Assembly: GCA_000004985.1 (NCBI GenBank)
Contig: GG739544.1
Reading direction: 5' to 3' (one strand)
DNA: 1,124 bases
DNA from: Naegleria gruberi
Lineage: Eukaryota
Below, piece after piece: positions 1 through 1,124 of the stretch (positions are counted from its first letter, which is position 1; every line of letters begins with the position of its first letter). The translations under genes were made by a program, and so were the position numbers. Below the pieces are notes generated by a model that did no database searches, had not been told where the DNA came from, and was given only the letters and a program-made list of their open reading frames with translations.

Positions 1-590
1 TCCAAACCCAAACCCAAACCCAAACCCAAACCCAAACCCAAACCCAAACCCAAACCCAAACCCAAACCCAAACCCAAACCCAAACCCAAACCCAAACCCA
101 AACCCAAACCCAAACCCAAACCCAAACCCAAACCCAAACCCAAACCCAAACCCAAACCCAAACCCAAACCCAAACCCAAACCCAAACCCAAACCCAAACC
201 CAAACCCAAACCCAAACCCAAACCCAACCCAAACCCAAACCCAAACCCAAACCCAAACCCAAACCCAAACCCAAACCCAAACCCAACCCAAACCCAAACC
301 CAAACCCAAACCCAAACCCAAACCCAAACCCAAACCCAAACCCAAACCCAAACCCAAACCCAAACCCAAACCCAAACCCAAACCCAAACCCAAACCCAAA
401 CCCAAACCCAAACCCAAACCCAAACCCAAACCCAAACCCAAACCCAAACCCAAACCCAAACCCAAACCCAAACCCAAACCCAAACCCAAACCCAAACCCA
501 AACCCAAACCCAAACCCAAACCCAACCAAAACCCAAAACCCAAACCCAACCCAAACCCAAACCCAAACCCAAACCCCCAACCCCCAACCA
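1..590. repeat. Telomeric tandem repeat (CCCAAA)n, about 98 units, written as the C-strand. The G-strand TTTGGG lies on the minus strand and runs 5'->3' toward position 1, so this is a left chromosome terminus.
   Basis: Directly seen. Apart from a single T at position 1, bases 1-590 contain only C and A, in a strict 6-bp period of CCCAAA. Two interior 5-bp units (CCCAA) sit at 223-227 and 282-286. The innermost 521-590 is degenerate: cccaa / ccaaaa / cccaaaa / cccaaa / cccaa / cccaaa x4 / cccccaa / cccccaa / cca. A sharp transition to mixed-composition sequence follows at 591 (ttacttgcaaattgtgcc...). A C3A3/T3G3 unit is of the ciliate T2-4G3-4 type; TTTGGG is one of the two units reported for Paramecium telomeres. 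It is not TTAGGG, TTTAGGG or TTGGGG. Confidence 0.9.
521..590. repeat. Degenerate telomere-proximal (innermost) repeat zone with variant units CCCAA, CCAAAA, CCCAAAA and CCCCCAA
   Basis: Directly seen: cccaaccaaaacccaaaacccaaacccaacccaaacccaaacccaaacccaaacccccaacccccaacca. Variant units concentrated at the internal edge of a telomere array are typical. The oldest repeats accumulate mutations or reflect the earliest, more error-prone rounds of synthesis. Confidence 0.75.
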
Positions 591-719
591 TTACTTGCAA
601 ATTGTGCCGATTTTAGTCAATTGCAACATTTGAATTTGAGAAGTAATGGAATTAATTTTGAAGGAATTAATGCTCTTTCAAAGAGTGAATTTATCAAGAA
701 TTTGAAAAGTTTTGAGATT
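591..719 (+). CDS. Segment A (codons in register with position 591) of a 5'-truncated RNI-like LRR protein. Translation: [43 protein letters not shown], followed by TAA TAA. There is no start codon; the frame stays open upstream through the whole telomere array.
   Basis: Translating codons starting at 591 (tta ctt gca aat tgt gcc gat ttt agt caa ttg caa cat ttg aat ttg aga agt aat gga att aat ttt gaa gga att aat gct ctt tca aag agt gaa ttt atc aag aat ttg aaa agt ttt gag att) gives a clean 27-aa LRR unit, [27 protein letters not shown]. The start of the next unit, LKSFEI, follows. There is no in-frame ATG between the telomere junction and the double stop at 720-725. Under the standard code this ORF has no internal stops. 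Confidence 0.6.
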
Positions 720-720
720 T

Positions 721-1124
721 AATAATTTGGGAAAGGAAAGTTTTGAAGTTTTAACAGAAAGTGAAAATTTCAAAAATTTAACAGAACTCAATTTGTACAA
801 TTCCACAAATGCATCTAGTAATCGTCCTAGACGTGCGTTCATGATGGAGTATAGAACAAATGACGAATCTTATCAGAAATTGGTAAAAAGTCCCTATTTA
901 AAAAATTTGAAAAGTTTGAATTTGAGATATTGTGATATTGGAAATGCATTCGCAATAGAGCTTTCGAATAATATTGAAATGAGGAATTTAACAACACTCA
1001 ATCTGCAGCATAACTATATCGGAGATGAAGGCCTTAGACATTTATCCACGAGCACACATTTGTCAAATTTAACAAATTTAAACTTGCAATTTAATTGTAT
1101 CTCTGTGGAAGGATCTTTACACAT
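721..1124 (+). CDS. Segment B (+1 register relative to segment A) of the same RNI-like LRR protein. It is partial and continues beyond the 3' end of the window. Translation: NNLGKESFEVLTESENFKN LTELNLYNSTNASSNRPRRAFMMEYRTNDESYQKLVKSPYLKN LKSLNLRYCDIGNAFAIELSNNIEMRN LTTLNLQHNYIGDEGLRHLSTSTHLSN LTNLNLQFNCISVEGSLH...
   Basis: This frame is open from 706 to the end of the window (last full codon 1120-1122), about 139 codons with no stop. Clear RNI-type LRR periodicity appears as L[KT]xLNLxxNxIGxxGxxxLxxxxxxxN at 907-987, 988-1068 and 1069 onward. One expanded unit (781-906, 42 aa) carries a 15-residue insertion, NASSNRPRRAFMMEY, that is more GC-rich than its surroundings. The motif IGDEG...L matches the ribonuclease-inhibitor / NLR-type LRR class. 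All Gln codons are CAA or CAG. A long LRR-consistent ORF in AT-rich DNA is very unlikely by chance. Confidence 0.75.

What the first reader, a model, noticed from the sequence alone, without database searches (positions are those of the whole stretch)
699..745. +1 register jump in the LRR array exactly at a tandem TAA TAA after ATT: sequencing error, pseudogenisation, or a shifty-stop +1 frameshift site
Up to 719 the LRR reads ...[12 protein letters not shown] in the register that starts at 591, then meets TAA TAA (720-725). The LRR consensus resumes immediately in the +1 register at 721: aat aat ttg gga aag gaa, giving NNLGKESFEVLTESENFKN. It lines up with the later units (LG matches IG, L19, and terminal N). 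Skipping the single base T720, so that ATT TAA is read as ATT then AAT, restores a continuous protein. The protein comparison also suggests this unit is 2 residues short (25 versus 27), so a 5-nt deletion is equally compatible with the arithmetic. I see three explanations. (a) An indel error in the T/A homopolymer context gagatttaataattt. (b) A genuine frameshift in a gene already decapitated by the telomere, which would be relaxed selection on a dead gene. (c) A programmed +1 ribosomal frameshift at a stop codon, as is obligatory and widespread in Euplotes (codon-then-TAR sites, classically AAA-TAA). Option (c) is the least likely. The Euplotes-type C4A4 telomere is not present, and the preceding codon here is ATT rather than AAA. 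The tandem stop plus an immediate in-register continuation is nevertheless the configuration such sites have.
Basis: partly seen in the sequence, partly recalled or inferred. Interest (0 to 1): 0.55.

Follow-up and report, generated by a model that had tools for sequence, protein, structure and literature searches.

The report
Five-base deletion in a truncated gene
The apparent "+1 jump at a double stop" is a 5-base deletion in a telomere-capped, headless fragment of a Naegleria gruberi F-box/leucine-rich-repeat gene, and is an ordinary broken gene copy or sequencing flaw, not programmed ribosomal frameshifting.

Summary
The frame change is real in the sequence, but it sits elsewhere and has a different cause from the one proposed. 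The window is Naegleria gruberi DNA. The TTTGGG telomere array (1-590) directly abuts codon 113 of the F-box/LRR gene NAEGRDRAFT_47484. tblastn of that 1018-aa protein shows window 591-710 = residues 113-152 (39/40 identical) and window 712-1122 = residues 155-291 (137/137 identical) in the +1 register. Residues L153 and N154 (6 nt) are represented by one base, T711. The lesion is therefore a 5-nt deletion at about 711, nine bases upstream of T720. "FEI" is out-of-frame reading of Leu-Arg-Phe codons. TAA TAA is T+AAT+AA of Phe157-Asn158-Asn159 read out of frame. Both full-length relatives (N. gruberi protein and a metagenomic orthologue) read SLNLRFN continuously, so no frameshift site is conserved. 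The fragment has no start codon and lacks its first 112 codons, so there is nothing to translate. Programmed +1 frameshifting is effectively excluded. I cannot tell without reads or the reference DNA whether the deletion exists in the genome (decay or allelic variation of a dead, telomere-healed copy, about 0.55) or arose in sequencing, cloning or assembly (about 0.40). Either way it is ordinary. Interest is low.

The parts
1..590 (+). Telomere array, C-rich strand at the left end of the record. It holds 89 perfect CCCAAA units plus a few units that are one base off. The array is irregular from 521 onwards (CCCAA, CCAAAA, CCCAAAA, CCCAA, CCCCCAA x2, CCA).
   Evidence: TTTGGG is the candidate telomere repeat reported for N. 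gruberi (PMC3622300). The orientation is the one expected for a chromosome terminus.
591..710 (+). Codons 113-152 of a copy of N. gruberi NAEGRDRAFT_47484 (F-box/LRR protein), in register 0. There is no ATG in this register. Codons 1-112, including the F-box, are absent.
   Evidence: tblastn: 39/40 identical. The only difference is Ser (AGT, 615-617) where P0001 has Gly121. The F-box lies at P0001 residues 16-52.
711..711 (+). Site of the 5-nt deletion. A single T stands where the intact gene has the 6 nt that encode Leu153-Asn154. The exact placement is ambiguous within the T run 710-713.
   Evidence: SLNLRF against S--LRF. Orthologue DNA reads AGT TTA AAT TTG AGA TTC AAT (L001). The in-window paralogous unit at 910-928 reads AAAAGTTTGAATTTGAGAT, against AAAAGTTTTGAGAT at 705-718.
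712..1124 (+). Codons 155-291 of the same gene, in register +1. The ORF runs off the right end of the window.
   Evidence: tblastn: 137/137 residues identical to P0001 155-291.
720..725 (+). TAA TAA in register 0. It is made of the third base of Phe157 (TTT), Asn158 (AAT) and the first two bases of Asn159 (AAT) read out of frame. It is a consequence of the upstream deletion, not a signal.

Best explanation
The window is a chromosome-end or scaffold-end fragment of Naegleria gruberi. A TTTGGG telomere array is joined directly to codon 113 of the F-box/LRR gene NAEGRDRAFT_47484.

Relative to the intact gene, the fragment carries a 5-nt deletion at about base 711. The deletion removes Leu153-Asn154 from 'KS LN LRFNNLG' and leaves one T. 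Everything downstream is thereby moved into the +1 register. Nine bases later the old register runs into TAA TAA, which is only TTT AAT AAT read out of frame.

The copy has lost its promoter, start codon and F-box to the telomere, so it cannot be translated. The deletion is best read as a genuine neutral lesion, or an allelic difference, in a dead telomere-healed gene copy.

Shown: the organism, the parent gene, the truncation point, and the position and size of the indel. Inferred: that the deletion is present in the genomic DNA rather than introduced during sequencing, and that the telomere junction is natural.

The confidence of 0.55 applies to 'genuine lesion in the DNA'. The broader claim, that this is a simple 5-nt indel at 711 and not a recoding signal, I hold at about 0.97.
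For: - The full HMMER scan found one near-identical protein, P0001 (E = 4e-116). It is XP_002679900.1 / NAEGRDRAFT_47484 of N. gruberi, on a 602,266-bp scaffold.
- BLASTP gives 173/179 identities with a 2-residue gap at the junction.
- tblastn gives two HSPs: 591-710 = residues 113-152, and 712-1122 = residues 155-291 at 100% identity.
- The metagenomic orthologue P0003/L001 has SLNLRFN, encoded by AGT TTA AAT TTG AGA TTC AAT.
- No other relative above 52% identity exists in the 90%-clustered protein collection, so this is a copy of that one gene and not an annotated paralogue.
- The telomere repeat matches the one reported for N. gruberi.
- The telomere array degenerates over its last 70 nt, as natural proximal telomere repeats do.
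- The 411 nt downstream of the deletion contain no amino-acid change. This argues against generally poor sequence. A clean 5-nt loss is also not a typical base-calling error (inference).
Against: - I had no reads and no reference nucleotide sequence, so the deletion could be an artefact.
- All irregularities cluster in 521-711: odd telomere units, the G121S substitution at 615 and the deletion at 711. After 711 the coding sequence is perfect. That pattern would also fit a stretch of low-quality sequence following a long simple repeat.
- The record is only 1124 bases long, which suggests very low read support.
- A chimeric clone joining telomere DNA to an internal gene fragment is not excluded.
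Confidence: 0.55

Rival explanations
1. The deletion is the same 5-nt deletion at about 711, but it is an artefact: a base-calling, consensus, cloning or assembly error in a tiny, poorly supported telomere-containing contig. The telomere-gene junction may itself be a chimeric clone. The genome would then hold only the intact gene.
For: - The record is only 1124 bases long.
- Error-like events are concentrated in 521-711, directly after about 500 nt of hexamer repeat: 6 irregular telomere units, 1 substitution and the deletion. None is detectable in 712-1124.
- The deleted stretch lies in a low-complexity near-repeat, TTTGAATTTGAG.
- Only one annotated gene of this kind exists in the species.
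Against: - A clean 5-nt loss is unusual for base-calling error.
- The flanking 411 nt are flawless at the protein level.
- Degenerate repeats next to the junction look like a natural proximal telomere rather than a random ligation point inside a perfect array (inference).
Confidence: 0.4
2. The site is a programmed +1 ribosomal frameshift at a shifty stop (ATT-TAA). The ribosome skips T720 to make a continuous LRR protein, as in Euplotes.
For: Only the local configuration supports it: a sense codon followed by TAA TAA, with an open +1 frame downstream.
Against: - The organism is Naegleria gruberi, Heterolobosea, not Euplotes.
- Homology leaves the 0 frame at 710 and enters the +1 frame at 712, not at 720.
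- The product of a slip at T720 would read KSFEINN instead of the conserved KSLNLRFNN.
- Both full-length relatives are continuous ORFs with no frameshift.
- The fragment has no start codon and lacks 112 N-terminal codons.
- A stop this close to a shift is expected by chance (41% within 3 codons).
Confidence: 0.01
3. There is no real frame problem. Either TAA TAA encodes Gln-Gln under a ciliate nuclear code (a Paramecium-like C3A3 telomere), or a tiny intron spans the junction.
For: - CCCAAA is one of the two Paramecium telomere hexamers.
- Gln-Gln would suit the x7-x8 positions of the LRR unit.
Against: - Under code 6 the 0 frame still ends at TGA 744-746 after QQFGKGKF, which is non-LRR sequence.
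- The telomere is pure C3A3 with no C4A2 units, unlike Paramecium.
- The parent gene is from Naegleria.
- No in-frame TAA or TAG occurs in the 177 homologous codons.
- The window is colinear with P0001 except for the 5-nt gap, so no intron lies here.
- GT...AG candidates around 709-748 have lengths of 27, 32 or 40 nt. The first two are not of the 3n+1 length needed. The 40-nt one would remove conserved LRR sequence (read directly from the sequence).
Confidence: 0.01

Closest known systems
Truncated gene fragment or pseudogene with a frameshifting indel at a chromosome end (a gene broken and capped by telomere repeats)
   Same: It is nearly identical to an intact parent gene (NAEGRDRAFT_47484). 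It has lost the 5' 112 codons to a telomere array. It carries a 5-nt frame-disrupting deletion followed by premature stops.
   Different: The presence of the lesion and of the telomere junction in genomic DNA has not been verified with reads. The fragment could be an allelic or subclonal variant, or an artefact, rather than a fixed pseudogene.
Euplotes-type shifty-stop +1 programmed ribosomal frameshifting (AAA-TAA/TAG sites)
   Same: On the surface, a sense codon is followed by TAA and an open +1 frame continues the protein family's repeat pattern.
   Different: The lineage is wrong (Heterolobosea, TTTGGG telomere). The preceding codon is ATT. Homology switches frame 9 nt upstream of the stop, with 2 residues missing. 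Orthologues have no shift. There is no initiation codon.
RI-type (LRR_6) leucine-rich-repeat F-box proteins of Naegleria
   Same: The coding part matches Pfam LRR_6, LRR_4 and LRR_1 and is a copy of an F-box/LRR protein.
   Different: Only residues 113-291 are present, and the F-box itself is missing.

Membership tests
Shifty-stop +1 programmed ribosomal frameshift (Euplotes type) | The host lineage is one in which internal stops routinely trigger +1 or +2 frameshifting (Euplotes; C4A4 telomeres). | tested here: not met
   The parent gene is from Naegleria gruberi, Heterolobosea. The telomere is TTTGGG, as reported for N. gruberi.
Shifty-stop +1 programmed ribosomal frameshift (Euplotes type) | Protein homology runs in frame 0 up to the codon before the stop and continues in frame +1 immediately after it, with no residues missing. 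| tested here: not met
   tblastn shows that frame-0 homology ends at 710 and +1 homology starts at 712. Two residues (L153, N154) are missing. The stop lies at 720.
Shifty-stop +1 programmed ribosomal frameshift (Euplotes type) | The frameshift site recurs in orthologues or in many genes of the genome. | tested here: not met
   P0001 and P0003/L001 are continuous ORFs across the site. A genome-wide survey was not possible with these tools.
Shifty-stop +1 programmed ribosomal frameshift (Euplotes type) | The site lies inside a translatable mRNA, with a start codon upstream in frame 0. | tested here: not met
   There is no ATG in 591-719. Codons 1-112 are replaced by telomere repeats.
Gene fragment or pseudogene with a disabling indel | There is close similarity to an intact parent gene. 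| tested here: met
   176 of 177 aligned residues are identical to NAEGRDRAFT_47484.
Gene fragment or pseudogene with a disabling indel | Disabling lesions are present (truncation, frameshift, premature stop). | tested here: met
   The 5' truncation is at codon 113. The 5-nt deletion is at 711. Stops lie at 720-725 and 744-746.
Gene fragment or pseudogene with a disabling indel | The lesion is present in genomic DNA and is not a sequencing or assembly artefact. | not testable with these tools
   No reads or reference nucleotide sequence are available. P0001 DNA and the window's ORFs are not on record. The metagenome scans were empty.
Ciliate nuclear genetic code (TAA/TAG = Gln) | Reading TAA/TAG as Gln restores a continuous homologous ORF. 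| tested here: not met
   The code-6 translation ends at TGA 744-746 after 8 non-homologous residues.
Natural telomere / de novo telomere addition site | A terminal tandem array of the species' telomere repeat, in C-strand-5' orientation at the left end, abuts unique sequence. | tested here: met
   About 96 copies of CCCAAA at 1-590 abut codon 113 of the gene with no subtelomeric repeat.
Natural telomere / de novo telomere addition site | The junction is supported by independent molecules and is not a chimeric clone. | not testable with these tools
   No read data are available.

The most novel reading that the evidence does not exclude
The window may record a natural chromosome-breakage and healing event in Naegleria gruberi, with de novo TTTGGG telomere addition inside an F-box/LRR gene. 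The two sequence changes (G121S at 615 and a 5-nt deletion flanked by TT microhomology at 711) both lie within 120 nt of the healing site and might be scars of error-prone repair linked to telomere addition. This would be a first molecular look at telomere healing in a heterolobosean.
Probability: 0.15. Interest if true: 0.35.

Novelty: already known. Interest (0 to 1): 0.08.

Why it matters
It matters mainly as a negative result. A configuration that looks like a Euplotes-style shifty stop is fully explained by a 5-nt deletion nine bases upstream, in a non-translatable telomere-capped gene fragment of Naegleria gruberi. There is therefore no evidence for programmed frameshifting outside its known lineages. 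The window has minor value as an example of the N. gruberi TTTGGG telomere joined directly to unique coding sequence. If read data verify that junction, it would document telomere healing in this organism.

Tried and rejected
1. Ciliate origin and code 6. The CCCAAA telomere first suggested Paramecium. I rejected this because frame 0 still ends at TGA, the array has no C4A2 units, and the parent gene is from Naegleria.
2. A tiny intron across the junction. I rejected this because the GT...AG candidates have the wrong length class or remove conserved LRR sequence, and the window is colinear with P0001.
3. The word-indexed protein search with the joined 177-aa translation found nothing. The exhaustive HMMER scan was needed to find the parent gene.
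4. I tried to obtain the reference DNA or the window's own contig with the look-up of encoding contigs, using P0001 and two window ORFs. Nothing is on record.
5. I made two metagenome scans, one with a DNA pattern bridging the junction with a 0-12 nt gap and one with protein-derived patterns. Both gave no relatives.
6. The Rfam scan of both strands gave only a chance-level SCARNA7 hit (14 bits against a 65-bit threshold).
7. Literature searches for a long-read N. gruberi assembly with telomere information found none. The only relevant result was the 2013 report of TTTGGG as the candidate repeat. The 2010 genome paper is not held.

Full report
**What is in the window.** Bases 1-590 are a tandem array of CCCAAA. 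Tandem Repeats Finder reports 96 copies at 97% match. A unit census gives 89 perfect units, four CCCAA, one CCAAAA, one CCCAAAA and two CCCCCAA. The irregular units are concentrated from 521 to the junction. From 591 the sequence is 30% G+C and encodes RI-type leucine-rich repeats (Pfam LRR_6 E = 3e-15, LRR_4, LRR_1).

**The observation.** The register of 591 reads ...[12 protein letters not shown] up to 719 and then TAA TAA at 720-725. The +1 register reads NNLGKESFEVLTESENFKN... from 721 and stays open to the end of the window.

**Which organism.**
- The word-indexed protein search found nothing.
- The exhaustive HMMER scan found one outstanding hit, P0001, at E = 4e-116.
- P0001 is XP_002679900.1 / NAEGRDRAFT_47484 / D2V8C5_NAEGR, a 1018-aa F-box domain protein of Naegleria gruberi encoded on a 602,266-bp scaffold. 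Its F-box lies at residues 16-52 and it has many LRR_6 repeats.
- N. gruberi is a heterolobosean, not a ciliate.
- TTTGGG is the candidate telomere repeat reported for N. gruberi from its genome data (PMC3622300).
- Paramecium, the other organism with C3A3 units, has random C4A2/C3A3 mixtures (10.1101/2025.11.06.686955). The window has no C4A2 unit.
- From general knowledge, Naegleria uses the standard genetic code. Consistent with this, the 177 homologous codons contain no in-frame TAA or TAG.

**Where the frame really changes.**
- BLASTP of the joined translation against P0001 gives 173/179 identities, with a 2-residue gap at the junction.
- tblastn of P0001 against the window gives two HSPs.
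  - Window 712-1122 in the +1 register equals residues 155-291, with 137/137 identical.
  - Window 591-710 in register 0 equals residues 113-152, with 39/40 identical. The only change is Ser for Gly121.
  - The HSP extension over 711-719 (FEI against LNL) is mismatched.
- Residues Leu153-Asn154 (6 nt) therefore correspond to a single base, T711. The lesion is a 5-nt deletion.
- The same conclusion follows at DNA level from two comparisons.
  - The metagenomic orthologue P0003 (52% identical, ENA contig L001) reads AGT TTA AAT TTG AGA TTC AAT AGA CTT GGT at this spot.
  - A paralogous repeat unit inside the window (910-928) reads AAAAGTTTGAATTTGAGAT, against AAAAGTTT-----TGAGAT at 705-718.
- A three-way alignment shows S--LRFNNLG against SLNLRFN(N/R)LG in both full-length proteins.
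- 'FEI' is TTG AGA TTT (Leu155-Arg156-Phe157) read out of frame.
- TAA TAA is the last base of Phe157 plus AAT AA of Asn158-Asn159.

**Is the stop position special?** No.
- The old register carries 16 stops in 136 codons downstream.
- 41% of hypothetical shifts into it would hit a stop within three codons.
- A second tandem stop occurs later in the same register.
- AAT is the most frequent codon in this sequence (25 of 177), so T-AAT-AAT giving TAA TAA is unremarkable.

**Can this fragment be translated at all?** The window starts at codon 113 of the parent gene. The telomere replaces the promoter, the ATG and the F-box. Register 0 has no ATG between 591 and 719. A frameshift signal would have nothing to act on.

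**Programmed +1 frameshifting is therefore excluded for practical purposes.**
- The lineage is wrong.
- Homology does not switch frame at the stop.
- Two residues are missing.
- The site is not conserved in the intact gene or in the orthologue.
- There is no initiation codon.

The ciliate-code reading fails because register 0 ends at TGA 744-746 after eight non-homologous residues. An intron reading fails because the window is colinear with P0001 apart from the 5-nt gap.

**What remains open is the origin of the deletion.**

In favour of a genuine lesion in a dead, telomere-healed copy:
- A clean 5-nt loss is not a typical base-calling error.
- The following 411 nt are flawless at the protein level.
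- The array degenerates towards the junction, as natural proximal telomere repeats do.
- No paralogue above 52% identity exists, so this is a variant copy of that one locus.

In favour of an artefact:
- The record is only 1124 bases long.
- All irregularities cluster in 521-711, immediately after about 500 nt of simple repeat: odd telomere units, the substitution at 615 and the deletion at 711. After 711 they stop.
- The deleted bases lie in a near-repeat, TTTGAATTTGAG.

I could not obtain reads or the reference nucleotide sequence. P0001 and the window's ORFs are not in the contig index, and both metagenome scans were empty. I put a genuine lesion at about 0.55, an artefact at about 0.40, and everything else at a few per cent.

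**Comparison with known things.** The feature behaves like an ordinary frameshifted gene fragment at a chromosome end. It resembles a Euplotes shifty-stop site only superficially and fails every defining feature that I could test.

**Novelty.** None for the finding itself. The only mildly interesting reading is that the telomere-gene junction records a natural chromosome-healing event in Naegleria, with nearby repair scars. Read data would be needed to support that.

**Verdict.** This is an ordinary finding, and interest is about 0.08.

Noticed in passing
window 1-590: The telomere array is almost pure CCCAAA (89 perfect units) with no CCCCAA units. The deviant units are length variants (CCCAA at 223, 282, 521 and 545; CCAAAA at 526; CCCAAAA at 532; CCCCCAA at 574 and 581). 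Six of the eight lie in the last 70 nt. This could be natural degeneracy of the proximal telomere, or read quality decaying after a long simple repeat.
   Followed up: partly
window 588-593: The telomere repeats abut codon 113 (TTA, Leu) of the gene directly, with no subtelomeric sequence. The CCA at 588-590 does not match the Lys112 codon of the parent protein. This fits either de novo telomere addition at a break inside the gene or a chimeric clone.
   Followed up: partly
window 615-617: AGT (Ser) stands where NAEGRDRAFT_47484 has Gly121. This is the only amino-acid substitution in 177 aligned codons. It lies within 120 nt of the telomere junction, as the deletion does.
   Followed up: no
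window 796-888: One LRR unit is atypically long. It carries an insert of about 20 residues (STNASSNRPRRAFMMEYRTNDESY) of higher G+C. The insert is present and partly conserved in the metagenomic orthologue (TATSHTFHKFAIMGEFSTKDEGY), so it is a genuine feature of this protein family. GTACAATTCCACAAATGCATCTAG at 795-818 looks like a GT-AG mini-intron, but it is coding in P0001.
   Followed up: partly
L001 190-2109 (P0003) against P0001: The metagenomic orthologue is 639 aa long and ends near KKK, where P0001 continues for about 380 more residues (about 640-1018) that have no Pfam match. The N. gruberi gene model may fuse two genes, or the orthologue may lack a C-terminal domain.
   Followed up: no
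window 908-967: A weak Rfam SCARNA7 match (14 bits against a gathering score of 65, E = 0.5) lies inside coding sequence. It is a chance hit.
   Followed up: yes
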